Positions 1 to 42,686 of a stretch of DNA of 42,686 nt are shown piece after piece. A model generated the notes under the pieces. That model saw nothing but the letters and a program-made list of their open reading frames with translations. It did no database searches and had not been told where the DNA came from. Positions within the stretch are counted from its first letter, which is position 1. Each line of letters opens with the position of its first letter. Source of the DNA: Escherichia phage PGT2; sequence record NC_047890.1; one strand, written 5' to 3'. Made by a program: the position numbers and the translations under genes.

Positions 1-260
1 TCCAACACAAATGAGGTCGCGTTTCCCCCGTAGGCCCGGCCTTCTGGATGGCTAAATGGCTGGATGGATGGATGGCTGGACGGCTAGACGTTTAGACGGC
101 TAAATGGCCAAATGACCGTAAAAAGGGCCGTGGGCACTGATAGGGTCAATCGGGCTGTAAGCCACGCCAACCGGGGTTTCCGCACATTACTTTATAAGAG
201 AGCTTGTAAGGTGTCTGGCGGCGATCCGTCTACGACGGGAGAAGGAAAGAGACGTGGGGT
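1..260. repeat. Left direct terminal repeat (DTR), 260 bp
   Basis: Bases 1-260 are identical to 42427-42686, checked block by block. The repeat runs to the window edge, so 260 bp is a minimum length. Confidence 0.9.
48..118. repeat. Array of short imperfect ~8-bp repeats (CTRRAYGG-like) inside the terminal repeat
   Basis: ggctaaatgg ctggatgg atggatgg ctggacgg ctagacgt ttagacgg ctaaatgg ccaaatga read directly. Resembles the short repeat series in T7 terminal repeats. Confidence 0.6.
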
Positions 261-2682: not shown

Positions 2683-3177
2683 ATGAAAGTATTAATTTCT
2701 GCATTCCGTAAAGAAAACGATCTGTTAACCCATATCAATAATCACGCGGAATTATTCGACCGCATCACCGCATTAGGATTGACGCCGCAGCCCGTCGATG
2801 GCGTGTGGAAAGGTGTATCGGAGTTTTCTTACATGGTACACGGTGTTACCACAGCGATGCTCAAAGCGTTTTATGCAATGGCCCGCGACTACAATCAGGA
2901 GGCTATCTTGCTTGTTGCTGATGATAACCGTGCCGCAGTAGTGCCCACCGATGGCCCGGTGATGGCCCCGATGATTGACGTTGGCGACTGGAGGGAAGTA
3001 AGCAAAGAGATCGCGATACAATTTGACGGATACACCAAGACACGCGACGGCCGCTATTTTGTCGCCGCCACTCGTGAGCAGTTCGGCCTCGCCACTCGTC
3101 GGCTGTTAGCCACACAGATGGGCGTAATCGCTGCTAACGAATATGCAGCACGTGTAAACGCAGTGGGAGGATTATAA
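2683..3177 (+). CDS. Hypothetical early protein (164 aa)
   Basis: Start at the second ATG (2683), chosen because the 28-nt block before it is 27/28 identical to the leader of ORF 2123; the provided ORF track begins at the in-frame ATG at 2671. Confidence 0.55.
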   Translation: MKVLISAFRKENDLLTHINNHAELFDRITALGLTPQPVDGVWKGVSEFSYMVHGVTTAMLKAFYAMARDYNQEAILLVADDNRAAVVPTDGPVMAPMIDVGDWREVSKEIAIQFDGYTKTRDGRYFVAATREQFGLATRRLLATQMGVIAANEYAARVNAVGGL

Positions 3178-3178
3178 A

Positions 3179-3427
3179 ATGCGCAAACTTAGTGAAATTG
3201 TACATCATACCAACGTATTCTATAACAGCAAGGGTTATCTGTGGATAACCCTGAAGGACGTGCGACCTGACGGGCGTCATCGTGTGGTAGTACGTAAAAT
3301 GTACAGCAAATACGTTAGTAATTGGTCATTGGATACAGTACGCATTAATAACGAGACTTTTCAGATTGACTCACAGATTGACCTACAACCAACGGCAAGC
3401 CATTCCGCACCATATTTTTCTAACTGA
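3179..3427 (+). CDS. Hypothetical early protein (82 aa)
   Basis: ATG preceded by SD gggagg; overlaps the stop of the upstream gene. Confidence 0.55.
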   Translation: MRKLSEIVHHTNVFYNSKGYLWITLKDVRPDGRHRVVVRKMYSKYVSNWSLDTVRINNETFQIDSQIDLQPTASHSAPYFSN

Positions 3428-3504
3428 ATCCGGGCCTATGCCGCGCACTCATGGGCGGCATACACACGCAGTCAGATCACTCCCATTAAATGAGGACACA
3501 GAGC

Positions 3505-3618
3505 ATGAACACAATAACATCCGGCCTTGCACTCATCGGCGCGATTATCGGCGTCGCTGTGTTTAACGCATTACCCTTGATTATTGGCGTGGCGGTCCTC
3601 AGTTGGTGGCTGTCATAA
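3505..3618 (+). CDS. Small hydrophobic peptide (37 aa), probable single-pass membrane protein
   Basis: ATG with SD gagga at 8-nt spacing; translation MNTITSGLALIGAIIGVAVFNALPLIIGVAVLSWWLS; below the 60-aa cutoff of the ORF track. Confidence 0.4.
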   Translation: MNTITSGLALIGAIIGVAVFNALPLIIGVAVLSWWLS

Positions 3619-3682
3619 TCCACGCACTCATAGCCACACTGTACGTTTCCCAATCGCATAAATCATTTTGAGATATACGCAT

Positions 3683-3862
3683 ATGAATATCAAAGAATCC
3701 GTATCCACAGAACGCGCCGCCGCCATACAGTACGCGCACGATAACCTATCACCGGATGCCTACTGGCTGTTCTGTGACCGCCTGCGAGAAACAGAAGACC
3801 TATCCCCGGATAATATCCACGCCCTTATTGTCGCAGTAGCGCAGGAGGTATCTAATGTTTGA
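3683..3862 (+). CDS. Small acidic early protein (59 aa)
   Basis: ORF track starts at TTG 3668; first in-frame ATG is 3683; weak RBS. Confidence 0.4.
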   Translation: MNIKESVSTERAAAIQYAHDNLSPDAYWLFCDRLRETEDLSPDNIHALIVAVAQEVSNV

Positions 3863-4103
3863 GGCAGCGAACGACGACCATTACAACGAAAAAACAGCGG
3901 TGGAAGAGGCACAGAAGCGCCAGCGGGATATAAATATGGCCTACTATACACGCGTGCCGCCGTTTTACGTGTTCCAGCAAGGCGCTGGCGTAGGCGTATC
4001 CTTCGGTTATGTCACGAGATACGGTTACTCCCGTGTAGGTTATGCCAGCTATTCAGATGCGGCAGAGGCGGCAGAGGCTTATTCCAGTGAGGTAGAAAGA
4101 TGA
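3855..4103 (+). CDS. Hypothetical early protein (82 aa), Tyr/Gly-rich
   Basis: ATG preceded by SD aggagg. Confidence 0.55.
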   Translation: MFEAANDDHYNEKTAVEEAQKRQRDINMAYYTRVPPFYVFQQGAGVGVSFGYVTRYGYSRVGYASYSDAAEAAEAYSSEVER

Positions 4104-4288
4104 CACAGCCTGTATATAACGTGTACCGGGGTACGGGCGTATGCGTCCGGATGACATACCGGGCTGTTCCGGGGGCCACAGTGTCCCAATTCCTCACTGA
4201 CTCCGGCTGGCAGGATAGTCTAGTGACTGAACGCACTATTCGCGCCAGTCTCCCACTCGTGGCTAAAAACGTGAGGTTCAAGGCATGA
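4100..4288 (+). CDS. Hypothetical early protein (62 aa)
   Basis: ATG preceded by SD gtgaggtag; overlaps the upstream stop. Confidence 0.5.
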   Translation: MTQPVYNVYRGTGVCVRMTYRAVPGATVSQFLTDSGWQDSLVTERTIRASLPLVAKNVRFKA

Positions 4289-5964: not shown

Positions 5965-6270
5965 ATGAGCGAACGTATCTGCGTACCATATGCACGTAAA
6001 GGCAATCCAGACGTACACACTATCGTAATCCCAGCAGGCTTTATCAGTCTGGAAGACCTCTTGTCCCATGTCGGCTTCCAGCTTGGCATGGGCGACCAGT
6101 TGCTGGATGAGATTAACGGCCTTCTGGCACAGGAATACACAGCAGGCAAGCGCGCGCTGGCTGAAGTCCTGAGCCGGGCTACTCATAGCGCGACGTACAC
6201 TCCCAACATGGAGGATGCGCACCGTATCCTGACGGCTGAAGAATTGGGGTATGCAAATGACCGTGAGTAA
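5965..6270 (+). CDS. Hypothetical early protein (101 aa)
   Basis: ATG preceded by acgaggc-type SD. Confidence 0.55.
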   Translation: MSERICVPYARKGNPDVHTIVIPAGFISLEDLLSHVGFQLGMGDQLLDEINGLLAQEYTAGKRALAEVLSRATHSATYTPNMEDAHRILTAEELGYANDRE

Positions 6271-6361
6271 AGCCATTGGCTGGCTGATAGCCTACGCAGT
6301 GTTTTCTATAGTCGCCAACATCATCGGCGGCATCTCGTTAATTTTGTTCCTGCTCAAGTGA
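6251..6361 (+). CDS. Small hydrophobic peptide (36 aa), possible membrane protein
   Basis: Translation MQMTVSKAIGWLIAYAVFSIVANIIGGISLILFLLK; overlaps the end of ORF 5965 in another frame; weak RBS. Confidence 0.3.
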   Translation: MQMTVSKAIGWLIAYAVFSIVANIIGGISLILFLLK

Positions 6362-6645: not shown

Positions 6646-7466
6646 TGAACTACCGTGATTCCGATTGGTATTTGGCTATAAAAGACCATCCGGTCGGTAC
6701 TCGGCTGCGTATGGCACACGATGGCTGCTCCACGAGTGAGGCACTCATCGTCACAAAACAGGATTCCGGGGTAAGCGCGTATTGCTTCCGTTGCAAATGG
6801 AACGGATTCGTTGGCGCGCCTCCTGAATCGTTGGCCCAAAAGTTAGAGCGTAAATCTCGTGAGAAGCTCGCCAGCAAGGTGATGAAGGATAGTAAGGCGT
6901 TACCATCCCCCAAGTGCGAAAACATCGCTGAGTGGCCGCTAGAAGCGCGGATTTGGCTCTATAAAGCTGGACTTAATAACCATGACATATCTGAAGCTGG
7001 TATTTATTATCATGGAGGCAGTAATCGTGTGGTCATCCCTATATTTGATGGTGACGCGCTGGTGTATTGGCAAGCCCGTGGATTTGACCCTGAAGCGCCT
7101 AAGTACCTCAATCCGTCGGTGGTGGACCGGACTGCTCTTGTCGCCAACTGGTACGGCTCTGAAAGATGCCTTGTTCTTACAGAGGACTGGCTATCAGGCT
7201 ACCGGGTACATCGGGCCACAGGCTTCCAAGTCTATGCCCTCCTTGGGACAACACTCACGGACGCAATCGCGGCCCAAATCGTCTACAACCGTGTACCAGT
7301 GGCCATATGGCTCGACCCGGATTCGGCGGGCCAGACTGCGGCGCGGAAGATTATTGCTAAACTCAGTGCGCTGAACCACCCGGTTAAAAACATCGTCACT
7401 GAGCGGGATCCTAAACTTTACAGTGACGCAGAAATCCGGGAGGTGTTACGATGCGACCCACAGTGA
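6645..7466 (+). CDS. DNA primase (zinc-binding and TOPRIM domains)
   Basis: Cys cluster HDGC...CFRC near the N-terminus; TOPRIM-like LVLTEDWLSGYR and IWLDPDSAGQTAARK; strong SD aggaggg. Confidence 0.8.
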   Translation: MNYRDSDWYLAIKDHPVGTRLRMAHDGCSTSEALIVTKQDSGVSAYCFRCKWNGFVGAPPESLAQKLERKSREKLASKVMKDSKALPSPKCENIAEWPLEARIWLYKAGLNNHDISEAGIYYHGGSNRVVIPIFDGDALVYWQARGFDPEAPKYLNPSVVDRTALVANWYGSERCLVLTEDWLSGYRVHRATGFQVYALLGTTLTDAIAAQIVYNRVPVAIWLDPDSAGQTAARKIIAKLSALNHPVKNIVTERDPKLYSDAEIREVLRCDPQ

Positions 7467-7852
7467 TGGAGAGTTGTTGCATCTGCCATACGCAGAAAGG
7501 TCCCTATAATCAGGCAGGCCGTGCAACATACAAGGGCCGGATGGTGGGGTTACACAGGCTTATCTTCTTTAAGGAGTTCGGTTACTGGCCGGAAGTTGTC
7601 CTGCACCTCTGCGACAACCAGCGCTGTATAAATCCTGAACATCTGGTAGGAGGTACACAGGCAGACAACATCCGAGATGCAGTAGAGAAAGGGCGGTGGG
7701 TAAGAAATTTCCCTAATAAGTTATCCGCAGACACTGTTCGGGCCATACGAAGCGCGGTAGGCACAAACAAGCAGATAGCACAACAGTTTAATATAGACCC
7801 GGCGCATGTAAGCCGTATCAAAAATGGTATTGCTTATAAGGAGGTCACATAA
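7451..7852 (+). CDS. HNH homing endonuclease
   Basis: HNH core LHRLIF...HLCDNQRCINPEHL...N with a C-terminal helix-turn-helix-like segment; sits between primase and helicase. Confidence 0.7.
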   Translation: MRPTVMESCCICHTQKGPYNQAGRATYKGRMVGLHRLIFFKEFGYWPEVVLHLCDNQRCINPEHLVGGTQADNIRDAVEKGRWVRNFPNKLSADTVRAIRSAVGTNKQIAQQFNIDPAHVSRIKNGIAYKEVT

Positions 7853-14782: not shown

Positions 14783-15772
14783 ATGCCAAAGACTAATCTC
14801 ATTGCACTATTCACCAAGGAACAGCACCAGAACATCCTCGGCAAGCACCCCGACAACACGGCTGCTGCCAAGGCGTACAACGAACTGCTGGGCTGGAATA
14901 GTCCGGTAGTCTACCGCCAAGTGGTGGCGTACTGGCGCAAGATTTATATCGACCACGGTGGTAAGAAAGGCGAGGCTATTCGTGAAGAGAAACAAGCTGT
15001 TAAGCTGGTTCAGCCATCACCAAGTGACGATATTGGTAACACTGACGTCCCTGACGTGTGTCGCCGTATCCTTGTGGTTGGTGATTTACATGCTCCTTAT
15101 ACTCATCCCGACGCTATTGCTTTCCTTCGCCATGTCCGAGACAGTTATGTTCCTGACATGGTTGTTCAGGTAGGCGATGAGACGGACGGCCACGCAATCA
15201 GCTTCCACGACTCGGACCCGAATCTGGATAGCGCCGGGGTCGAATTAGAGAAAGCCAAAGCCGTACTGGAGCAATTACATGACCTGTTCCCGAACCTTCT
15301 GGTATGTGACTCCAATCACGGCAGTCTTGTGTATCGCCGCGCAAAGGCTCACGGTCTACCAGTGCAATTTATCAAGAAGTACCGTGATATTCTTTTCCCT
15401 GAGCACGGTGCTAAGAAGTGGTCATGGGCTGACGCATGGGTACTCAATACCCCGCTTGGCCAAGTTCGATTCCAACATCAAGTGTCGGGCGACTTCATGC
15501 TTAACGCCAGCCATGAGAGAACCTCGCTTGTCTTGGGTCACGAGCATGGTCGCTTTGAAGTGCAGTACGCAGCAAGCTCAACAGCTTTGTACTTTGGTGC
15601 ATACGCTGGGTGTCTGATTGACCGTAAGTCTCTGGCCTTTGCCTACGGCAAGTTGCACCGCAAGAAACCAATCCTCGGCGTGATGGTAATCACCGATGGT
15701 TGTCCGCAGTTAATCCCTATGCTGATGGATGAAAACGGGAGGTGGTGTGCGCGAGATAAAACCAAAGGTTGA
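14783..15772 (+). CDS. Calcineurin-like metallophosphoesterase
   Basis: Motifs VVGDLHAPY, VQVGDETDGH, CDSNHG, GHEH; in-frame ATG 14783 with upstream SD (ORF track start 14666 overlaps the endo VII gene). Confidence 0.65.
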   Translation: MPKTNLIALFTKEQHQNILGKHPDNTAAAKAYNELLGWNSPVVYRQVVAYWRKIYIDHGGKKGEAIREEKQAVKLVQPSPSDDIGNTDVPDVCRRILVVGDLHAPYTHPDAIAFLRHVRDSYVPDMVVQVGDETDGHAISFHDSDPNLDSAGVELEKAKAVLEQLHDLFPNLLVCDSNHGSLVYRRAKAHGLPVQFIKKYRDILFPEHGAKKWSWADAWVLNTPLGQVRFQHQVSGDFMLNASHERTSLVLGHEHGRFEVQYAASSTALYFGAYAGCLIDRKSLAFAYGKLHRKKPILGVMVITDGCPQLIPMLMDENGRWCARDKTKG

Positions 15773-15794
15773 TACAGGGAAGAGATTCCGGGGT

Positions 15795-16292
15795 ATGGTG
15801 GTGTACACTTGGGACTGCCCTTACTGTGGTAGAGAGTTTGAGGCTATACGGACTAAGCTCTTCAATACAAGTAAGCGAGGTGGTGCAGGGCATTGTGGGT
15901 GTCAGACTAAGGTTCGACAGTCACAAAGAAATGCAGGGCGTACACCGCCTAATAAGCTGGACGATTTGACAGCCTCCGCTAACAAGGTGTGGCAGTACAG
16001 TACCAAACTAGGCCGGAGCATTACTAAAGAGGATGCCAAAGCCTTAGTAAGTGCAAACTGTTACTACTGCGGGGCAGCGCCCAGCACCTACCGAGAGATT
16101 GGTGGAGGTCGCTGGTCGCGCAAGTCCGAAATACCCACAAACGGAATCGACAGAAAGGATTCATCTGTAGGTTATCACGTACATAATTGTGTACCTTGCT
16201 GCCCTACGTGCAACTACATGAAGTCCGATATGCACCACGACGACTTCTTGGAGTTGTGTAGTAAAATAGCCGACCGTTGGGCCGGTCGCTAA
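15795..16292 (+). CDS. HNH endonuclease (second free-standing copy)
   Basis: N-terminal CPYCG zinc motif and C-terminal HVHNCVPCCPTCNYMKSD HNH motif; start could also be ATG 15729. Confidence 0.65.
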   Translation: MVVYTWDCPYCGREFEAIRTKLFNTSKRGGAGHCGCQTKVRQSQRNAGRTPPNKLDDLTASANKVWQYSTKLGRSITKEDAKALVSANCYYCGAAPSTYREIGGGRWSRKSEIPTNGIDRKDSSVGYHVHNCVPCCPTCNYMKSDMHHDDFLELCSKIADRWAGR

Positions 16293-35714: not shown

Positions 35715-35743
35715 GGTGGGCTTCGGCCCACCTCTATTTTATT
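35715..35743 (+). terminator. Rho-independent terminator between the gp16-like gene and the tail fiber gene
   Basis: Perfect 7-bp stem ggtgggc / gcccacc with loop ttcg, then tctattttatt. Confidence 0.6.
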
Positions 35744-35753
35744 GGAGATTTTG

Positions 35754-38516
35754 ATGGCTATTACGTTTTATGCTACCAACAACTTCACTGGTGATGGTAC
35801 TACCGTAAACTGGAATATTAACTTCGCAGACGGTTATATCGACATCACCACCGTGAAGGCGCGGTATCTGGATAATACCGGGAGCTACGTTGACATCGCT
35901 ATTTCAAGCGTGGCAGGAAACGTAGTAACCATTTCCCCGGCTGTGGCGGACGGTCAGGAGTTCCAAATCTATCGTGATACAGAGAAGCGGTTCCCGCTGG
36001 TGGACTTCTCTGACGGTGCAATCCTCAACGAGACTAACCTTGACACGCTGGCTACTCAAGCTGTGATGGTGTCTGCTGAGGCATTCGACCAGTCTAACAA
36101 CGGTGTGCGTATCGCAGGTGATTCCTTGGTTGTTGCACAGGGTATCGACGCCAAGGCACAGGAAGCTCTGGACAACTCCGAGGCTGCTGTAGCTACAGCG
36201 AACGGTATCGACGGTAAAGCGCAGACGGCATTGAATACCGCCGCCGCCGCTGTCGCCACGGCTAATGCTGCCACATCTACTGCTGCTGGTGCTGTATCTA
36301 CGGCCAACACCGCACTGTCTACTGCCCACGATGCCGCCGATGACGCAGCTACCGCTATCACTACCGCTAACGGCGCTGTGATTACGGCCAATGCTGCAAC
36401 CACTACGGCCAACGCCGCTAGTGCTGCCGCCTCTGCTGCAACGACTACTGCGAACAGTGCTGCAAACGACGCTGCTACTGCTGTGTCTACTGCGGGTACG
36501 GCCTTGTCTACTGCGAACACCGCATCTACCAACGCCTCTACCGCTGTGTCCACGGCTAACGGCGCTAAGGCTACTGCTGAGGGTATCGAGGCTAAAGCGG
36601 ATTCTGCTTTGGCAGCCTCTGCTACCGCTGTGTCCACAGCTAACTCAGCCGAGGCTACGGCCAACGCTATCGACGGTAAGGCTACGGACGCATTAGACAC
36701 TGCCGACTCCGCTGTGGCTACGGCTAACGCTGCTGTTTCTACGGCTAACTCTGCTACTGCTACGGCTAATGCTGCCTCTTCTACTGCGAGTTCGGCTGCC
36801 TCTGACGCCAGTACCGCCTTGAGCACAGCTAATGCTATTGACGCAAAGGCACAGACTGCTTTGGATAATACCACGGCTCTGGATGCGGCCACCATGAAGA
36901 AAGCCGCCAACTTATCTGATATTGCGGATAAGGCGGCTGCATGGCTTAACGTCCGTCCTATTGGCTCCACGCCATTGGCAGGCGACCCGGTAGGGGATTA
37001 CGATGCTGTTACTAAGCGTTGGGTAGAGAACCTGATTAACACAGGTACTGTCGGTCCAACCATGAACGGGGTGATGAACTTCGGCGTCGGTGACTTCCAT
37101 CTCCGGGATAGCCGCGCGTACATCCAGCCTTATGAGGTTGTCTCTGACGGTCAGTTACTGAACCGCGCTGACTGGCCTGAACTTTGGGCCTACGCCCAAA
37201 TGCTGTCGCCTATAACGGATGCAGCTTGGTTGGCAGACCCTCTCAAGCGCGGCGCTTACTCTACCGGAAACGGAACCACTACCTTCCGAGTACCGGATAG
37301 GAACGGTGTTCAGTCAGGCTCTGTAAGGGCGCTTTTTGGGCGTGGTGACGGTGGGAACTCTTCTATCGGCAGTACCATCATGGAGTCCTTCGTACCGAAT
37401 ATCACGGCTACGTTAAATATGCACGGTGCTGGTCCCGCATCAGAACCTGCCGCTGGTACTAACGTGGCAGGATTTGGTGGTGCCTTGGTTGCTACGGGAG
37501 AGGCTCTCCCGAGATACCTGCGTGGGGTTACTCTGTTATCTGCTGGTGGTAACTCCTATGGTGGAGCTACCTTCGATGCCTCCCGTTCCAGTGCTGCTTA
37601 TGGTCGTGGTGGTCTGACTACGGATGAGGTTCTGCCGCGTAACTTCACTGGTGTATGGGTAATTCGTGCATCTGGCGGCTTCGTAGCGGCTAATACGCAG
37701 TGGCAGGTTATAAACCAAGATGCGACTAGGCCCGGTAACGGTACTGCCGTCTTAGGTGGTAATATTGTATCTGAGTACCGCGTTGGTGGTGCCTTGGAGG
37801 GTACAGCAAACTTCCGTATGGCGGGTACTATCGATGGTTCGTATGGCGCGCGCATTGCTGTTTATAATGCCACATCTTTAAATGGCGCCAGCTTCGATTT
37901 TACAGAGCACGGGAACATAGAGACTCCCCTTGGTAGGGCTATTGTTATAGGCAACTATGGTATAGGTTCGCAAGCAGATGCTATACCTACTTCGAGGGAT
38001 AACGCATTTATCTCTAACGCTGATAGTAATAGTTCTTGGTCTGCTTCTAACGGGGGTGGCTTTCAAATTACATATGCAGCTAACCGTATCGTCCAGTTCT
38101 GGGTAAGTCAAGGTGGTACTACGGCTTATTTCCGTGCTAATAGCACAGACAGTAACCCCCAACGACCGAAGTCTGCATCTCCTTGGGTCACACTCCAGAA
38201 TGCTGGTACTTCGGACGCTAATGTAAAAACCGTCCTCGGTGACTTAGACTTATCTATACCGTTGAGTAATATCAACGCACTGGAGTTTAAGAAATTCCGC
38301 TACAACAAGGATGGTGAGGATGGCCCGGTTCGACGGGGCATTATCGCGCAGCAGGCGCAGAATGTGGACCCGGAGTACGTACATTCTGCGGATAAGTCCG
38401 GGGTTATGACTCTTGATAGTAACCCGCTGCTGTTGGATGCTCTAGCTGCTGTCAAAGCACTATCTGCTAAAGTGGCCGCTCTGGAAGAGCGTATTGATGA
38501 ACTAACTTCTCAGTAA
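35754..38516 (+). CDS. Tail fiber protein: T7 gp17-like N-terminal adaptor, Ala/Thr/Ser-rich repeat shaft, C-terminal intramolecular chaperone domain
   Basis: N-terminus LVDFSDGAILNETNLDTLATQAVMVSAEA parallels T7 gp17 [29 protein letters not shown]; C-terminus GIIAQQAQ...LAAVKALSAKVAALEERIDELT is chaperone-like; ORF track start 35742 is a TTG. Confidence 0.8.
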   Translation: MAITFYATNNFTGDGTTVNWNINFADGYIDITTVKARYLDNTGSYVDIAISSVAGNVVTISPAVADGQEFQIYRDTEKRFPLVDFSDGAILNETNLDTLATQAVMVSAEAFDQSNNGVRIAGDSLVVAQGIDAKAQEALDNSEAAVATANGIDGKAQTALNTAAAAVATANAATSTAAGAVSTANTALSTAHDAADDAATAITTANGAVITANAATTTANAASAAASAATTTANSAANDAATAVSTAGTALSTANTASTNASTAVSTANGAKATAEGIEAKADSALAASATAVSTANSAEATANAIDGKATDALDTADSAVATANAAVSTANSATATANAASSTASSAASDASTALSTANAIDAKAQTALDNTTALDAATMKKAANLSDIADKAAAWLNVRPIGSTPLAGDPVGDYDAVTKRWVENLINTGTVGPTMNGVMNFGVGDFHLRDSRAYIQPYEVVSDGQLLNRADWPELWAYAQMLSPITDAAWLADPLKRGAYSTGNGTTTFRVPDRNGVQSGSVRALFGRGDGGNSSIGSTIMESFVPNITATLNMHGAGPASEPAAGTNVAGFGGALVATGEALPRYLRGVTLLSAGGNSYGGATFDASRSSAAYGRGGLTTDEVLPRNFTGVWVIRASGGFVAANTQWQVINQDATRPGNGTAVLGGNIVSEYRVGGALEGTANFRMAGTIDGSYGARIAVYNATSLNGASFDFTEHGNIETPLGRAIVIGNYGIGSQADAIPTSRDNAFISNADSNSSWSASNGGGFQITYAANRIVQFWVSQGGTTAYFRANSTDSNPQRPKSASPWVTLQNAGTSDANVKTVLGDLDLSIPLSNINALEFKKFRYNKDGEDGPVRRGIIAQQAQNVDPEYVHSADKSGVMTLDSNPLLLDALAAVKALSAKVAALEERIDELTSQ
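36100..36900. repeat. Imperfect tandem codon repeats (STAN/ATAN units) inside the tail fiber gene
   Basis: About 16 copies of nCyACnGCnAAy (encoding x-T-A-N) at roughly 7-, 11- and 14-residue spacing. Confidence 0.7.
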
Positions 38517-38525
38517 GGAGAGCCG

Positions 38526-38897
38526 ATGTCCGACTTCGAAGAAGAGGATGTCACACAGGAAGAGAACGGGTCTTCGGACCTGTTCAAACCCTTAGAGACT
38601 ATCCCCGGCGCTACCGCCAACCGGGACCAGATGGCAGAGCTACACCAGCTTATCTGCATCGCCCTGTCCGCACGTATCCGGGCAGGTATCTGGTCCTCCG
38701 GCGATATTGCCGCAGCTACAAAGTTCCTGAAGGACAACAACGTTACTGCCGATGTTGGCGACAACAAGGCACTCCAGAAACTACGCGATGAGATGGAAAC
38801 TAAGCAGAAGGCACGTCGTGAAGAACGGACGTATCTCTCTGAGCAAGAACTCGTCAAACTCGCAACGGAAGAACTGAATAACGAGATATGGCACTAA
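38526..38897 (+). CDS. Terminase small subunit (putative)
   Basis: Small acidic protein directly upstream of and overlapping the large terminase gene; strong SD aaggagag; assigned by synteny. Confidence 0.55.
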   Translation: MSDFEEEDVTQEENGSSDLFKPLETIPGATANRDQMAELHQLICIALSARIRAGIWSSGDIAAATKFLKDNNVTADVGDNKALQKLRDEMETKQKARREERTYLSEQELVKLATEELNNEIWH

Positions 38898-40696
38898 GAG
38901 AATCAGCAGAAAGAGAAGAACAGCGGTTACTTGAACTCGCAGCACTGCGGGACATGTACCCCACGTTCCTACCGTTTCTGATTGATTTCATGGTGATGCT
39001 CGGATTCTTCGTCACCCCGGTACAGAAGCTCATTGCTCAATTCCTTGAGTACGGGCCTCTGTACCGGATGGTGCAGGCCCAGCGTGGCCAAGCGAAGACT
39101 ACCATCACAGCCGCATATGCAATCTGGCGACTTATCCACGATACCAACCTTGCCGTGTTAATCGTCTCGGCAGGGGGCAAGCAGGCGAACGAGATTTCAA
39201 CCCTCATCGTCCGCTCATTCAAAACGTGGGATAAGCTGGCCTGCATGTGTCCTGACGCCTCTATGGGCGACCGTGAGTCAGTCGAAGCATTCGACGTTCA
39301 CTACAACTTAAAGAGGCTGAATAAATCTCCGTCCGTGGCCTGTACTGGCATCACGGGTAACTTGCAGGGTAAACGTGCGGGTCTGCTTATCGCGGACGAC
39401 GTTGAGTCCCAGAAGAACTCCCTGACTGCGGTCATGCGTGAGAACCTTCTGAACCTGACTCGTGACTTTACCTCCATCTGCTCCACCGGGGATATTATCT
39501 ACCTCGGTACACCGCAGACTACAGAATCAATTTATAACACCCTGCCGGGGCGTGGCTTTACTGTCCGCATCTGGCCGGGACGTTTCCCTACCGCAGAGCA
39601 GGTGGAAGCCTACGGCGACCAGCTATGCCCTGTCTTTAGGATGAAGATTGCTTCACGCCCTGACCTGACTACAGGCTACGGGCCGGATGGGCTTCAGGGT
39701 GCTCCGGTTGACCCTGTAATCCTCGGCGAAGCCTTCCTGAACAAGAAAGAGATTGACCAAGGAACTGCATACTTCCAGTTGCAGCACATGCTTCAGACGC
39801 GCCTGATGGATGCTATGCGCAAGCCATTACACGCAGAGAAGCTGATTGTGGCCCAACTGCCGAAGCGTGACGGTCTGTTCCCTATCACCATTACGCGAGA
39901 AATCTCTGTACAAGCCTACATGCGCCGAAACGTCCTGAGCAAGCCTCTGGTATTCGGTGTGCCCGGTAGCGTGTCTAAGGACGTCGCTACGCTTCAGGGC
40001 GTATGCTTCTACATCGACCCTGCTGGTGGTGGTAAGAACGCGGATGAAACTGCATTCGCTTGTACCGGGTTCCTGAACTCCAATATCTTCCTACTGGATT
40101 GGGGCGGCTTACCGGGCGGATATGCCCCGGATGTTATGTCCGCTCTCGCTCAACGTGTGTTTGATGTACGGCCCAATGTTGTCAAAATCGAAAAGAACTT
40201 CGGTTACGGCGCATTCCGCGAAGTATGGTTGCCGTACCTCTGGGCCATTTATGATAAAGCTGGTGTTAACCGTCCCGGCGTAGAGGACGATATGGTACAC
40301 GGCCAGAAGGAGAAGCGAATCATTGATACGCTTGAGCCTGTAATGGGTCGTGGCTCGCTTATTGTTGACGAGCGTCTCATCAAGGAAGACGAAGACCAAA
40401 CCATGCGGTACAGCGCACAAATGCGTGTGACGTACTCCGGGTTCCTACAGATGGTTAATATCTCCTACGACAAAGATGCGTTGGTGCATGATGACCGACT
40501 GGATGCTTTGGAAGGAGCGGTTCGTCATTGGCAGGATTGGCTTGCCAAGAACCAAGAGAAGGCCATTCAGGCTCAACGGAAACGTGAGTTCGAAGAGTGG
40601 CAGAAAGACCCTATGATGAAGAAGCGTTGTCAGTCCGTGAAGGAATACAATGCTGGTCGTCGTGGTAAAACCATGTTTGATAAGAGAAAACGCTAA
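38888..40696 (+). CDS. Terminase large subunit
   Basis: LAVLIVSAGGKQ, SPSVACTGITGNLQGKRAGLLIADDVESQKNS, IIYLGTPQT and ALVHDDRLDALEGA match the corresponding T7 gp19 segments. Confidence 0.9.
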   Translation: MALRESAEREEQRLLELAALRDMYPTFLPFLIDFMVMLGFFVTPVQKLIAQFLEYGPLYRMVQAQRGQAKTTITAAYAIWRLIHDTNLAVLIVSAGGKQANEISTLIVRSFKTWDKLACMCPDASMGDRESVEAFDVHYNLKRLNKSPSVACTGITGNLQGKRAGLLIADDVESQKNSLTAVMRENLLNLTRDFTSICSTGDIIYLGTPQTTESIYNTLPGRGFTVRIWPGRFPTAEQVEAYGDQLCPVFRMKIASRPDLTTGYGPDGLQGAPVDPVILGEAFLNKKEIDQGTAYFQLQHMLQTRLMDAMRKPLHAEKLIVAQLPKRDGLFPITITREISVQAYMRRNVLSKPLVFGVPGSVSKDVATLQGVCFYIDPAGGGKNADETAFACTGFLNSNIFLLDWGGLPGGYAPDVMSALAQRVFDVRPNVVKIEKNFGYGAFREVWLPYLWAIYDKAGVNRPGVEDDMVHGQKEKRIIDTLEPVMGRGSLIVDERLIKEDEDQTMRYSAQMRVTYSGFLQMVNISYDKDALVHDDRLDALEGAVRHWQDWLAKNQEKAIQAQRKREFEEWQKDPMMKKRCQSVKEYNAGRRGKTMFDKRKR

Positions 40697-40920
40697 TGAC
40701 TATTGCTGCACAACTCCCAGACCCGAAGCTCGACGTTAAGGGCGACCGACTGCGTTTCCTGTTGGCCGCTTGTATCAGCGAGTGTAATATCCAAGCAGAC
40801 AACGGTGCGTATGATAAAGGCACCAGCTTCAAAGCCCTGCTTACTGCCGCTGCTGCACTCGTGAAGGTAGCTCCGGTAGAACCTGAAGACCCGGAAGACC
40901 CTGAAAACCCGGGAGAATAA
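40696..40920 (+). CDS. Hypothetical protein (74 aa)
   Basis: ATG overlapping the terminase stop; acidic Pro/Glu-rich C-terminus. Confidence 0.45.
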   Translation: MTIAAQLPDPKLDVKGDRLRFLLAACISECNIQADNGAYDKGTSFKALLTAAAALVKVAPVEPEDPEDPENPGE

Positions 40921-40957
40921 TACAATTGGCCAAGGACGGCTATTGAGGAACCTATTT

Positions 40958-41245
40958 ATGCGTATCGACGACATCTGTTCACCCGGTTTTGTACCTAACT
41001 CCCACCGCCTTCGTCAGGAGACTGTCCGGGCTATTGCTTTCTGTGAAACCATAGGAAGCGCTGAGAAGGCCGTAGAGCTACAAAAATACTTTCGTGAGGC
41101 TATCGAATACCTTGACCGAGAAATCGTCTCCAGCGGCTTGCCAGAGAGCGAGAAGCCTATTGTGGATGCTGATGCTGTGTCACCATTCGCTGAGGAAGAA
41201 GTTGTGGCCGAACCGAAACCTAAAGCCAAAGGAGGCAAGAAGTGA
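40958..41245 (+). CDS. Hypothetical protein (95 aa)
   Basis: ATG at 40958 with SD gaggaa at 8-nt spacing (ORF track start 40943 is a TTG). Confidence 0.5.
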   Translation: MRIDDICSPGFVPNSHRLRQETVRAIAFCETIGSAEKAVELQKYFREAIEYLDREIVSSGLPESEKPIVDADAVSPFAEEEVVAEPKPKAKGGKK

Positions 41246-41694
41246 ATCTGACCGCAGCGGAGAAGTTAGTTCGACATTTTGAGGGTCTGAAGTTGGAATC
41301 GTACCTGTGTCCTGCTGGTATATGGACTATCGGGTACGGGCAGACCAAGGGTATTAAGAAAGGCATGGTGTGGACCAAGGCTCAGGCCGAGGCAGATATG
41401 TCTGCCACTGTCCGGCGCTTTGCCGAAGAAGTACGTCAACTGGTCCGCAAGGATACGACCGACGCTGAACTGAGCGCATTCACATCTCTGGCCTATAACA
41501 TCGGTACTCCGAACTTTAAGACGTCCTCTGCTCTGCGTTGGCATAATGCCCGTGAGTCCGCGTCCAAGGTATGTGCTGGTATCCGTATGTGGAACAAGGC
41601 CACCGTCAATGGCAAGAAGATTATCCTGAAAGGTCTGGTACGTCGCCGAGAGGCTGAATGCTCCGTATATACAACTGGAGACTTTAATGAATAA
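41242..41694 (+). CDS. Endolysin, phage lysozyme family (GH24 / T4-lysozyme-like)
   Basis: Motif EGLKLESYLCPAGIWTIGYGQT (Glu-8aa-Cys-5aa-Thr arrangement); GTG start with SD ggagg at 6-nt spacing; no N-terminal hydrophobic segment. Confidence 0.75.
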   Translation: MNLTAAEKLVRHFEGLKLESYLCPAGIWTIGYGQTKGIKKGMVWTKAQAEADMSATVRRFAEEVRQLVRKDTTDAELSAFTSLAYNIGTPNFKTSSALRWHNARESASKVCAGIRMWNKATVNGKKIILKGLVRRREAECSVYTTGDFNE

Positions 41695-41857
41695 ATTTAA
41701 GCAATATCTGGGTGCCGCATGGGATTTCACCAAGGAACATGGTGTTACTATCCTGCGTGGTGTGGCTGTCCTCCTTGTAGGTCGTAAGGTTGGTCGCGTT
41801 GCCAACCAGTCCGCCGATGTACTTGATACGGTCATCAAAGGGACTAAGAAGAATTAA
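41687..41857 (+). CDS. Small protein (56 aa) with one short hydrophobic segment; possible lysis accessory protein
   Basis: ATG overlaps the endolysin stop; translation MNKFKQYLGAAWDFTKEHGVTILRGVAVLLVGRKVGRVANQSADVLDTVIKGTKKN; below the 60-aa ORF cutoff. Confidence 0.3.
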   Translation: MNKFKQYLGAAWDFTKEHGVTILRGVAVLLVGRKVGRVANQSADVLDTVIKGTKKN

Positions 41858-41866
41858 AGGATAGCC

Positions 41867-42250
41867 ATGTTCGAAGGCACCGGGAACTACGGTTCCCTTG
41901 TGACCACCCTCCTTACGGGAGCAGTGGCGGCTCAAACCTCTTATCAGGTATCCCGTATAGTCACACATGATTCTCTGTTATTAGTTGGCATCCTCTGCGT
42001 CATCGGTATCGTGGTAGGTCTGGGTCATGCTCTCTCAAGCAAGTCCCCTCTCCCATTCCGCCGTATCGTAGGCAAGGTGCTTATGTCTACTGGCGTGGCC
42101 GTTACAGCCGCTGCTGTTTATTACTTCAAACCAAGTACCGACCCGTTAGTCGTCATTGCCATTGGCGCTGGGTTAAGCGTCATGGGTTCTGGCTGGCTGG
42201 AAGAGTTCGTCCGTAACAGAACAGGAACCAAGAAGGATGATGGTAGTTAA
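41867..42250 (+). CDS. Multi-pass membrane protein, putative holin
   Basis: Three to four hydrophobic segments and a charged C-terminal tail EEFVRNRTGTKKDDGS; SD aagga at 6-nt spacing; adjacent to endolysin. Confidence 0.55.
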   Translation: MFEGTGNYGSLVTTLLTGAVAAQTSYQVSRIVTHDSLLLVGILCVIGIVVGLGHALSSKSPLPFRRIVGKVLMSTGVAVTAAAVYYFKPSTDPLVVIAIGAGLSVMGSGWLEEFVRNRTGTKKDDGS

Positions 42251-42402
42251 AAGCTCTCACAAGCTCTACAACGCTCTCAAGGACGAGAGCAGTACGATGT
42301 TACCACCTGACCCTGATTAGATGCCTGATGACTTCATTAGCACGTTTTAAGTTGATTCCTGATTACGTGGTTAGCTAGTCCACAGAGGGCAGTCCTAAAA
42401 TT

Positions 42403-42411
42403 TGATATAAT
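42403..42411 (+). promoter_or_regulatory. Extended -10 promoter element (TGaTATAAT) facing the right terminal repeat
   Basis: tg at 42403-42404 and perfect tataat at 42406-42411; no good -35, which extended -10 promoters can lack. Confidence 0.35.
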
Positions 42412-42426
42412 TTTGTGAGGGGGCAG

Positions 42427-42686
42427 TCCAACACAAATGAGGTCGCGTTTCCCCCGTAGGCCCGGCCTTCTGGATGGCTAAATGGCTGGATGGATGGATG
42501 GCTGGACGGCTAGACGTTTAGACGGCTAAATGGCCAAATGACCGTAAAAAGGGCCGTGGGCACTGATAGGGTCAATCGGGCTGTAAGCCACGCCAACCGG
42601 GGTTTCCGCACATTACTTTATAAGAGAGCTTGTAAGGTGTCTGGCGGCGATCCGTCTACGACGGGAGAAGGAAAGAGACGTGGGGT
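42427..42686. repeat. Right direct terminal repeat (DTR), 260 bp
   Basis: Exact copy of 1-260. Confidence 0.9.

What the first reader, a model, noticed from the sequence alone, without database searches (positions are those of the whole stretch)
40696..42250. Lysis region with endolysin and holin-like gene but no obvious spanin pair
The endolysin has a lysozyme motif but no N-terminal signal-arrest-release segment. It is followed by a 56-aa ORF and a multi-pass membrane protein with a charged C-tail (putative holin). Two soluble ORFs of unknown function precede it. I could not identify a Rz/Rz1-type spanin (no convincing signal peptide plus lipobox), so spanins may be embedded, atypical or absent.
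Basis: partly seen in the sequence, partly recalled or inferred. Interest (0 to 1): 0.4.

Follow-up and report, generated by a model that had tools for sequence, protein, structure and literature searches.

The report
Known spanin-less lysis cassette with disruptin
The region is the already published lysis cassette of coliphage PGT2, a close relative of phiKT: it really has no spanins, because the 56-residue gene between the endolysin and the holin is the known "disruptin" peptide that breaks the outer membrane instead.

Summary

**Identity of the window.** It is the complete 42,686-bp genome of Escherichia phage PGT2, with 260-bp terminal repeats. It is about 95% identical to phage phiKT over the 39.2 kb that align.

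**Gene order at 40696-42250.**
- Two small acidic soluble ORFs of 74 and 95 aa.
- A soluble GH24 endolysin of 150 aa, with the E14-X8-C23-X5-T29 triad and no SAR segment.
- A 56-aa cationic helical ORF.
- A 127-aa holin with four hydrophobic stretches (PF04550).

**No spanin.** A six-frame scan of every start codon in the genome found no credible lipoprotein signal. That excludes both two-component and unimolecular spanins.

**The 56-aa ORF.** It is 54/56 identical to phiKT gp28, the founding "disruptin" (UniProt DISRP_BPPKT; Pfam PF26810 Phage_disruptin). Holt et al. showed that gp27-28-29 is a complete lysis cassette. They also showed that gp28 nulls give the spanin-null round-cell phenotype and that gp28 complements lambda Rz/Rz1 amber mutants. 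Their paper names this exact PGT2 protein (ATS92463.1) as the only homologue.

**Verdict.** Novelty: already known. Interest: low.

The parts
40696..40920 (+). orfA, 74 aa. It is acidic (net -6) and soluble, with a PEDPEDPE tail. Its function is unknown and it is not shown to take part in lysis.
   Evidence: The ORF is listed. It has no TMD. It matches phrog_13588 (unknown function) at E 4e-5. Homologues occupy the same position in phiKT (78 aa, in-frame repeat-number difference), in L003 (62 aa) and in L005/L006/L008 (164-166 aa). Its start overlaps the TerL stop by 1 nt (TAATG).
40958..41245 (+). orfB, 95 aa from the ATG (an alternative TTG at 40943 gives 100 aa). It is acidic, soluble and conserved. 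Its function is unknown and it is not required for lysis in the phiKT reconstitution.
   Evidence: It matches PGT2_g00043 at 100% identity over 95 aa. Against L003, 14 codons differ synonymously and 1 non-synonymously. GAGGA lies upstream of the ATG. Its stop overlaps the endolysin GTG start (GTGA). It has no Pfam, PHROG or NCBIfam hit.
41242..41694 (+). Soluble GH24 (T4-lysozyme-type) endolysin, 150 aa, orthologue of phiKT gp27. It has a GTG start.
   Evidence: PF00959, E 8.4e-36; phrog_7 endolysin, E 7e-44. The E14-X8-C23-X5-T29 triad is present and is the same as Holt et al. describe for phiKT gp27. It is 147/150 identical to phiKT. AGGAGG lies 6 nt upstream of the GTG, and L003 has an ATG at the same position. 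There is no N-terminal hydrophobic segment.
41687..41857 (+). Disruptin, 56 aa, net charge +6, predicted to be a single long amphipathic helix. It is the orthologue of phiKT gp28 and is identical to PGT2_g00045 (ATS92463.1). It substitutes functionally for spanins.
   Evidence: 54/56 identical to phiKT gp28. The exact sequence is ATS92463.1 / YP_009795477.1 of phage PGT2, in the same 90% cluster as UniProt 'Disruptin gp28' DISRP_BPPKT. Cluster representatives carry PF26810 Phage_disruptin. phrog_35982, E 9e-43. It has no TMD (maximum KD19 1.24; longest uncharged run 8 residues). The hydrophobic moment is 0.68 for residues 33-50, reached by 11 of 2000 shuffles. AlphaFold predicts a helix over residues 3-55 with mean pLDDT 74. 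Its start overlaps the endolysin stop by 8 nt (ATGAATAA).
41867..42250 (+). Holin, 127 aa, with four hydrophobic stretches and a charged C-terminal tail. Orthologue of phiKT gp29.
   Evidence: PF04550 Phage_holin_3_2 at 37.9 bits (cut-off 25). phrog_175 holin, E 4e-27. 127/127 identical to phiKT gp29, with 5 synonymous codon differences. Hydrophobic runs lie at 4-29, 36-58, 71-87 and 93-111.

Best explanation
The region is the right-end late-gene block of Escherichia phage PGT2, a T7-like podophage of genus Ermolevavirus. Its last three genes form a complete spanin-less lysis cassette.

The proposed sequence of events is as follows.

1. The holin (41867-42250) accumulates in the inner membrane and triggers to form holes.
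2. The holes release the soluble cytoplasmic GH24 endolysin (41242-41694), which degrades the peptidoglycan.
3. The 56-residue cationic amphipathic-helix peptide (41687-41857), a disruptin, is made in the cytosol without any signal sequence. It binds membranes and reaches the outer membrane.
4. There the disruptin weakens the outer membrane in the manner of a cationic antimicrobial peptide such as LL-37, probably by competing with the divalent cations that bridge LPS.
5. Once the wall is gone, the weakened outer membrane ruptures under turgor.

**Shown here:** gene content, gene order, orthology, the absence of any lipoprotein gene, and the peptide's charge and predicted helix.

**Shown experimentally, but for phiKT and not for PGT2:** gp27-28-29 are sufficient for lysis; gp28 nulls give round cells; gp28 complements lambda Rz/Rz1 amber mutants; gp28 is membrane-bound; the synthetic peptide is bactericidal.

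**Inferred:** that the PGT2 protein, which differs by S2N and K6Q, behaves identically, and the molecular details of how the outer membrane is weakened.

The two upstream ORFs are conserved genes of unknown function and are not needed for lysis in the phiKT reconstitution.
For: **Identity of the window.** The 260-bp exact terminal repeat and the 42,686-bp length match the PGT2 genome announcement. The 56-aa protein is exactly ATS92463.1 on a 42,686-bp contig. phiKT is the only relative in the phage collection, at 96.6% identity over the region.

**Orthology of the cassette to phiKT gp27/28/29.** The identities are 147/150, 54/56 and 127/127.

**Family assignment.** PF26810 Phage_disruptin is tagged on the cluster representatives and on the syntenic 56-60-aa genes of more distant relatives. 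UniProt names phiKT gp28 'Disruptin gp28'.

**Experimental basis.** Holt et al., bioRxiv 10.1101/515445, report that:
- phiKT has no lipobox;
- the 27-28-29 clone gives saltatory lysis;
- gene 28 deletion or nonsense alleles abolish lysis and give spherical cells;
- gp28 complements lambda RzamRz1am;
- PGT2 ATS92463.1 is the one known homologue.

The peer-reviewed version (J Bacteriol 204:e00214-21) is cited.

**My own checks.**
- No credible lipobox in any of 1,994 start/ORF combinations.
- Net charge +6 and no TMD.
- Amphipathic segment at residues 33-50.
- Predicted single helix over residues 3-55.
- Start/stop overlaps through orfB, the endolysin and the disruptin.
- Conserved core KFK..L..AW..TK...V..LRGVAV...GRKVGR.A.Q.A across relatives at about 55% identity.
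Against: - No experiment has been done on PGT2 itself.
- The PGT2 peptide has one fewer basic residue in the N-terminal cluster (K6Q; net +6 against +7). However, Q6, K6, H6 and A6 all occur naturally in the family.
- The local Pfam-A copy and NCBIfam returned nothing for the 56-aa ORF. The PF26810 label therefore rests on precomputed tags, not on a score I computed.
- The mechanism of outer-membrane weakening is a proposal even for phiKT.
- The AlphaFold model has only moderate confidence (mean pLDDT 74, four-sequence alignment).
Confidence: 0.92

Rival explanations
1. A spanin is present but hidden: an embedded or atypical Rz/Rz1 pair, or a unimolecular spanin, in another frame or elsewhere in the genome.
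For: Embedded o-spanin genes are common in T7-like and lambda-like phages (established knowledge). Several short ORFs with one hydrophobic stretch exist elsewhere in the genome, for example 3490-3618, 6251-6361, 6982-7374 and 14958-15173.
Against: Both spanin types require a lipoprotein. None of the 1,994 start/ORF combinations in six frames has a lipobox Cys preceded by an uncharged hydrophobic h-region and a basic n-region. The only pattern matches inside the region (LAAC in orfA; VSSC on the minus strand) have charged, non-hydrophobic leaders. Holt et al. reached the same conclusion for phiKT. The 130-aa ORF 6982-7374 with an N-terminal TMD lies out of frame inside the primase gene. The 42-aa TMD ORF 37978-38106 lies out of frame inside the tail-fibre gene.
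Confidence: 0.02
2. The 56-aa ORF is not an outer-membrane disruptor. Instead it is a holin regulator (antiholin), or a small inner-membrane protein that tunes lysis timing.
For: It sits immediately upstream of the holin. It has a moderately hydrophobic centre, GVTILRGVAVLLVG (maximum KD19 1.24). In phiKT part of the protein is found in the inner membrane. The original phiKT annotation called it a transmembrane protein.
Against: The longest uncharged run is only 8 residues, so there is no TMD. In phiKT, gene 28 nulls give Mg2+-stabilised spherical cells, which is the spanin-null phenotype and not a timing change. gp28 also complements lambda spanin amber mutants in a heterologous holin-endolysin background.
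Confidence: 0.04
3. The strongly cationic endolysin (net +9) permeabilises the outer membrane by itself, as reported for some endolysins with amphipathic C-terminal helices. On this view no separate outer-membrane component is needed.
For: The endolysin has a net charge of +9 and a basic C-terminal stretch, KKIILKGLVRRRE. Intrinsic outer-membrane-permeabilising endolysins are known (established knowledge).
Against: In the phiKT reconstitution, endolysin plus holin without gp28 did not lyse and gave round cells. The PGT2 endolysin differs from the phiKT one at only 3 of 150 residues.
Confidence: 0.02

Closest known systems
phiKT gp27-gp28-gp29 lysis cassette (Holt et al. 2019 preprint; J Bacteriol 2022). 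gp28 is the disruptin (UniProt DISRP_BPPKT, Pfam PF26810).
   Same: The gene order is the same: endolysin, 56-aa disruptin, holin, downstream of TerL at the right genome end. Protein identities are 147/150, 54/56 and 127/127. Neither phage has a lipobox anywhere. Both were isolated from horse faeces at the same site, and both belong to the same genus.
   Different: There are two substitutions in the disruptin (S2N, K6Q; net charge +6 instead of +7) and three in the endolysin. orfA has one PEDP repeat fewer. The isolation host is E. coli 7s instead of 4s. No experiments have been done on the PGT2 copy.
Lambda Rz/Rz1 two-component spanin and T1 gp11 unimolecular spanin
   Same: They serve the same step of lysis, outer-membrane disruption after peptidoglycan degradation. 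phiKT gp28 complements lambda Rz/Rz1 amber mutants.
   Different: The disruptin has no lipoprotein signal, no TMD, no periplasm-spanning coiled coil and no membrane-fusion mechanism. It is a single 56-aa cytosolically made cationic peptide.
Human cathelicidin LL-37 (cationic amphipathic-helix antimicrobial peptide)
   Same: Both are small, have a net charge of +6, are predicted helical and contain an amphipathic segment. Synthetic gp28 performed like LL-37 in MIC and MBC assays.
   Different: There is no sequence relationship. LL-37 has a higher hydrophobic moment (0.89 against 0.68) and lower mean hydrophobicity. LL-37 acts from outside the cell, whereas the disruptin is made inside it.

Membership tests
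Disruptin (phiKT gp28 family; Pfam PF26810 Phage_disruptin) | Sequence homology to phiKT gp28 | tested here: met
   It is 54/56 identical and falls in the same 90%-identity cluster as DISRP_BPPKT. phrog_35982, E 9e-43. Cluster representatives and syntenic relatives carry the PF26810 tag. The local Pfam copy itself gave no hit.
Disruptin (phiKT gp28 family; Pfam PF26810 Phage_disruptin) | Small cationic peptide, predicted amphipathic alpha-helix, with no signal sequence, TMD or lipobox | tested here: met
   56 aa, net charge +6. Longest uncharged run is 8 residues. Hydrophobic moment is 0.68, reached by 11 of 2000 shuffles. AlphaFold predicts a helix over residues 3-55, pLDDT 74.
Disruptin (phiKT gp28 family; Pfam PF26810 Phage_disruptin) | Lies inside a holin-endolysin cassette of a phage that lacks spanins | tested here: met
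   It lies between the endolysin and the holin. No lipoprotein ORF exists genome-wide. Seven related loci show the same synteny.
Disruptin (phiKT gp28 family; Pfam PF26810 Phage_disruptin) | Required for outer-membrane disruption; complements a lambda Rz/Rz1 null | not testable with these tools
   This was shown for phiKT gp28 only and is inferred for PGT2 from 96% identity.
Two-component spanin (Rz/Rz1 type) | o-spanin: outer-membrane lipoprotein with a signal peptide and a lipobox Cys | tested here: not met
   None of the 1,994 start/ORF combinations passes the lipobox, h-region and n-region criteria.
Two-component spanin (Rz/Rz1 type) | i-spanin: N-terminal TMD plus a periplasmic coiled-coil domain, with its gene adjacent to or embedding the o-spanin gene | tested here: not met
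   In the cassette only the holin has TMDs. TMD-bearing ORFs elsewhere are short or lie out of frame inside known genes.
Unimolecular spanin (T1 gp11 type) | N-terminal lipoprotein signal plus a C-terminal TMD | tested here: not met
   No lipobox candidate exists anywhere in the genome.
GH24 T4-lysozyme-type endolysin (PF00959) | Profile match above the curated cut-off, and the catalytic E-X8-D/C-X5-T triad | tested here: met
   123.5 bits against a cut-off of 22.3. E14, C23 and T29 are present.
SAR endolysin | Weakly hydrophobic N-terminal signal-anchor-release segment rich in Gly, Ala and Ser | tested here: not met
   The N-terminus MNLTAAEKLVRHFEGLKLE has 7 charged residues (3 E, 3 K/R, plus 1 E at position 19). 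The maximum KD19 over the whole protein is 0.53.
Holin, Pfam Phage_holin_3_2 (PF04550) | Profile match above the cut-off; small multi-TMD protein with a charged C-tail next to an endolysin gene | tested here: met
   37.9 bits against a cut-off of 25. Four hydrophobic runs and the tail FVRNRTGTKKDDGS. Hole-forming function was not directly tested, even in phiKT, where it is assumed from architecture.

The most novel reading that the evidence does not exclude
The two conserved, unannotated acidic ORFs (orfA 40696-40920, orfB 40958-41245) could be accessory lysis factors. They are translationally packed between TerL and the endolysin in every relative examined. Possible roles are a cytoplasmic chaperone or neutraliser that keeps the cationic disruptin or the net +9 endolysin harmless until the holin triggers. 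That would address the open question Holt et al. raise, of how a disruptin stays compatible with holin timing. My evidence does not exclude this, but nothing supports it beyond synteny and opposite charge. The phiKT 27-28-29 clone lyses without them.
Probability: 0.07. Interest if true: 0.45.

Novelty: already known. Interest (0 to 1): 0.1.

Why it matters
It matters little as a discovery. The spanin-less architecture of this phage lineage, and the role of its 56-aa peptide, were published in a 2019 preprint and in J Bacteriol in 2022. This exact protein is cited there, and the family now has a Pfam entry and a UniProt name.

The practical value is in annotation:
- The PGT2 gene is still labelled "hypothetical protein".
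- The phiKT copy is still labelled "OmpW family transmembrane protein".
- The phiKT endolysin start is wrong in the phiKT record.
- orfA and orfB are unannotated in phiKT.

A minor extension concerns the wider family. It has a more divergent branch (about 55% identity, 58-60 aa) in metagenomic podophages, including one from a JGI sample named 'rootH1'. That phage keeps the disruptin-holin pair next to a different (GH108) endolysin.

Tried and rejected
1. The local Pfam-A and NCBIfam scans of the 56-aa ORF returned nothing. The family label came from precomputed tags.
2. A phmmer search of 1.84 billion cluster representatives found one true cluster (P0002). It also found a spurious hit to a repetitive 443-aa protein, P0003, which I rejected as low-complexity chance.
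3. A tblastn search of the phage collection found only phiKT.
4. The peer-reviewed paper PMC8765421 is not held. I used the preprint instead.
5. The sigma-70 promoter and intrinsic-terminator scans of 38500-42686 gave no more sites than shuffles. The cassette appears to be read through from upstream late genes.
6. I considered a T7 gp17.5-position holin, the 42-aa TMD ORF at 37978-38106. I rejected it because it lies out of frame inside the tail-fibre gene 35742-38516.
7. I considered the 130-aa ORF 6982-7374 with an N-terminal TMD as an i-spanin. I rejected it because it lies out of frame inside the primase gene and has no lipoprotein partner.
8. The LAAC motif at residues 23-26 of orfA looks like a lipobox, but its leader has 4 charged residues and a mean hydrophobicity of 0.31. 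I rejected it.
9. I did not run a fold search on the single-helix model. A lone helix gives meaningless matches.
Full report
**What is in the sequence.**
- orfA: 40696-40920, 74 aa.
- orfB: 40958-41245, 95 aa from the ATG. A TTG at 40943 would give 100 aa.
- A lysozyme-family ORF: 41242-41694, 150 aa, GTG start.
- A 56-aa ORF: 41687-41857.
- A 127-aa hydrophobic ORF: 41867-42250.

The genes are tightly packed. The TerL stop and the orfA start share one base (TAATG). The orfB stop overlaps the endolysin GTG (GTGA). The endolysin stop overlaps the 56-aa ORF start by 8 nt (ATGAATAA). Nine bases separate the 56-aa ORF from the holin. Shine-Dalgarno-like sequences precede the endolysin (AGGAGG), the 56-aa ORF (GGAG) and the holin (AAGGA).

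**Family assignments.**
- The 150-aa protein matches PF00959 Phage_lysozyme (E 8e-36, 123.5 bits against a cut-off of 22.3) and PHROG endolysin families. It carries the E14-X8-C23-X5-T29 triad. Its N-terminus is charged and its highest 19-residue hydropathy mean is 0.53. It is therefore a soluble, holin-dependent endolysin and not a SAR endolysin.
- The 127-aa protein matches PF04550 Phage_holin_3_2 (37.9 bits, cut-off 25) and phrog_175 holin (E 4e-27). It has four uncharged hydrophobic runs and a charged C-tail.
- orfA and orfB are acidic (net -6 and -4), have no TMD, and have no informative family match.

**Are spanins really absent?** I enumerated every ATG, GTG and TTG start in all six frames of the whole window that opens an ORF of at least 25 aa. 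That gave 1,994 combinations, nested starts included. I looked for a relaxed lipobox with the Cys at residues 12-40. There were 87 raw pattern matches. None had a hydrophobic, uncharged h-region together with a basic n-region. Inside 40600-42686 the only matches are LAAC in orfA (leader with 4 charged residues) and VSSC and FTSC on the minus strand, none of them signal-peptide-like. Both spanin types require a lipoprotein, so spanins are absent and not hidden. TMD-bearing ORFs elsewhere in the genome are either very short or lie out of frame inside the primase or tail-fibre genes.

**What the window is.** The first and last 260 bases are identical. The region is 96.6% identical to Escherichia phage phiKT, the only relative in the phage collection. 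Genome-wide, 39.2 kb aligns at about 94.7%. The 56-aa protein is found by exact look-up as ATS92463.1 / YP_009795477.1, "hypothetical protein PGT2_g00045 [Escherichia phage PGT2]", on a contig of 42,686 bp. The PGT2 genome announcement gives exactly 42,686 bp and a 260-bp terminal repeat (PMC5773715). The window is therefore the complete PGT2 genome (MG201401), and the finding sits at its right end, just before the right terminal repeat.

**What the 56-aa ORF is.** It differs from phiKT gp28 at two positions, S2N and K6Q. It belongs to the same 90% cluster, which UniProt names "Disruptin gp28" (DISRP_BPPKT). Representatives of that cluster and the syntenic genes of relatives carry the Pfam tag PF26810 Phage_disruptin.

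Holt et al. (bioRxiv 10.1101/515445; the journal version is cited) chose phiKT as a spanin-less exemplar and reported the following:
- phiKT infections end in explosive lysis.
- The cloned 27-28-29 cluster is a complete lysis cassette.
- Deletion or nonsense alleles of gene 28 block lysis and leave spherical cells, which is the spanin-null phenotype.
- gp28 complements a lambda Rz(am)Rz1(am) prophage.
- gp28 is quantitatively membrane-associated.
- Synthetic gp28 matches LL-37 in MIC and MBC assays.
- The phiKT endolysin start in GenBank is wrong; the protein is 150 aa, with Glu14-Cys23-Thr29.
[quoted passage not shown] That is the very protein in this window.

**My own characterisation of the peptide.**
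- The net charge is +6, against +7 for phiKT.
- There is no TMD. The maximum KD19 is 1.24 and the longest uncharged run is 8 residues.
- An amphipathic segment lies at residues 33-50. Its hydrophobic moment is 0.68, reached by 11 of 2000 shuffles. LL-37 scores 0.89.
- AlphaFold on a four-sequence alignment predicts one continuous helix over residues 3-55, with moderate confidence (mean pLDDT 74).

**Distribution of the family.**
- The 90% cluster has 16 members, mostly from 43-45-kb metagenomic contigs. Position 6 varies naturally (Q, K, H), so the PGT2 substitutions fall within tolerated variation.
- A 76%-identical version (P0002) lies in loci L003 and L004 with the same order: TerL, orfA, orfB, endolysin, disruptin, holin.
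- Following orfB homologues led to more distant podophages, L005, L006 and L008. Their 58-60-aa proteins, about 55% identical, sit in the same slot and are also tagged PF26810.
- The invariant core across all of these is K3-F4-K5, L8, A11-W12, T15-K16, V20, L23-R24-G25-V26-A27-V28, G32-R33-K34-V35-G36-R37, A39, Q41, A43, V49 and K55.
- In L008 the GH24 endolysin is replaced by a GH108/PG_binding_3 enzyme, while the disruptin-holin pair is kept.
- A full phmmer pass over 1.84 billion cluster representatives found no family beyond this one. The disruptin family remains confined to this phage lineage.

**The two upstream ORFs.** Both are real genes. orfB shows 14 synonymous codon differences against 1 non-synonymous against L003 and is annotated in PGT2 as g00043. 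orfA is conserved over its first ~50 residues. Its tail varies: the PEDP repeat number differs in frame from phiKT, and the protein is 62 aa in L003 and 164-166 aa in L005, L006 and L008. Neither is annotated in the phiKT record. They are not needed for lysis in the phiKT reconstitution, and their function remains unknown.

**Mechanism, and what is shown against what is inferred.**
- Shown here: orthology, gene order, absence of lipoproteins, and the peptide's physicochemistry.
- Shown experimentally for the 96%-identical phiKT protein: necessity and sufficiency for the outer-membrane step, membrane association, and CAMP-like activity.
- Inferred: that the PGT2 copy does the same, and that it acts by displacing LPS-bridging divalent cations so that the outer membrane fails once the peptidoglycan is gone. 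The latter is the authors' proposal.

**Verdict.** The feature is already known, down to this exact protein, so interest is low.

Noticed in passing
window 1-260 and 42427-42686: The two ends are exact 260-bp direct terminal repeats. Together with the 42,686-bp length and the exact protein match, they identify the window as the complete genome of Escherichia phage PGT2 (MG201401).
   Followed up: yes
window 40696-40920 (orfA); L001 3097-3333; L005 3465-3965: The C-terminal PEDPEDPE tail of orfA differs in repeat number, in frame, from phiKT (74 against 78 aa). It is absent in L003 (62 aa). In L005, L006 and L008 it is replaced by a roughly 100-residue Ala/Thr/Val-rich extension (164-166 aa). 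The function is unknown.
   Followed up: partly
L001 (phiKT NC_019520) 3097-3664 and 3661-4113: The phiKT record leaves orfA and orfB unannotated. It starts the endolysin at an internal ATG (109 aa) instead of the GTG that gives 150 aa. It also labels gp28 'OmpW family transmembrane protein'. The PGT2 copy is 'hypothetical protein'.
   Followed up: yes
window about 40195-40255 (TerL residues about 437-456) against L001 1292-3097: phiKT TerL reads NFGYGVPRSMVAVPLGHFDKAG where PGT2 and L003 read NFGYGAFREVWLPYLWAIYDKAG. This short stretch looks like a compensated frameshift, or a sequencing error, in the phiKT record.
   Followed up: no
L005 5329-5775, L006 5355-5801, L008 5435-5902, L003 6551-6748; window 42237-42320: More distant relatives carry a 148-155-aa ORF that overlaps the holin stop and ends in ...GKVFLWYGRI. 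It has no TMD or lipobox by eye. L003 has a 65-aa internally deleted version. PGT2 and phiKT lack it; only an unrelated 27-aa ORF lies there. The function is unknown.
   Followed up: partly
L008 4366-4878 (JGI 3300003316, 'rootH1'): In this relative the GH24 endolysin is replaced by a GH108 + PG_binding_3 enzyme, while the disruptin and the holin are retained. This suggests modular exchange of the endolysin around a conserved disruptin-holin pair.
   Followed up: partly
window 42455-42545: Short degenerate reiterations (ggctaaatggctggatggatggatggctggacggctagacgtttagacggctaaatggccaaatgacc) lie inside the terminal repeat. They may be concatemer-junction or packaging-related motifs of the kind seen at T7-like genome ends. 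I did not analyse them.
   Followed up: no
window 37355-38478, 15727-16275 and 7448-7852: These segments do not align to phiKT. The first covers the C-terminal receptor-binding part of the tail-fibre gene 35742-38516. This is consistent with the recombination mosaicism and the host-range difference described in the PGT2 announcement.
   Followed up: no
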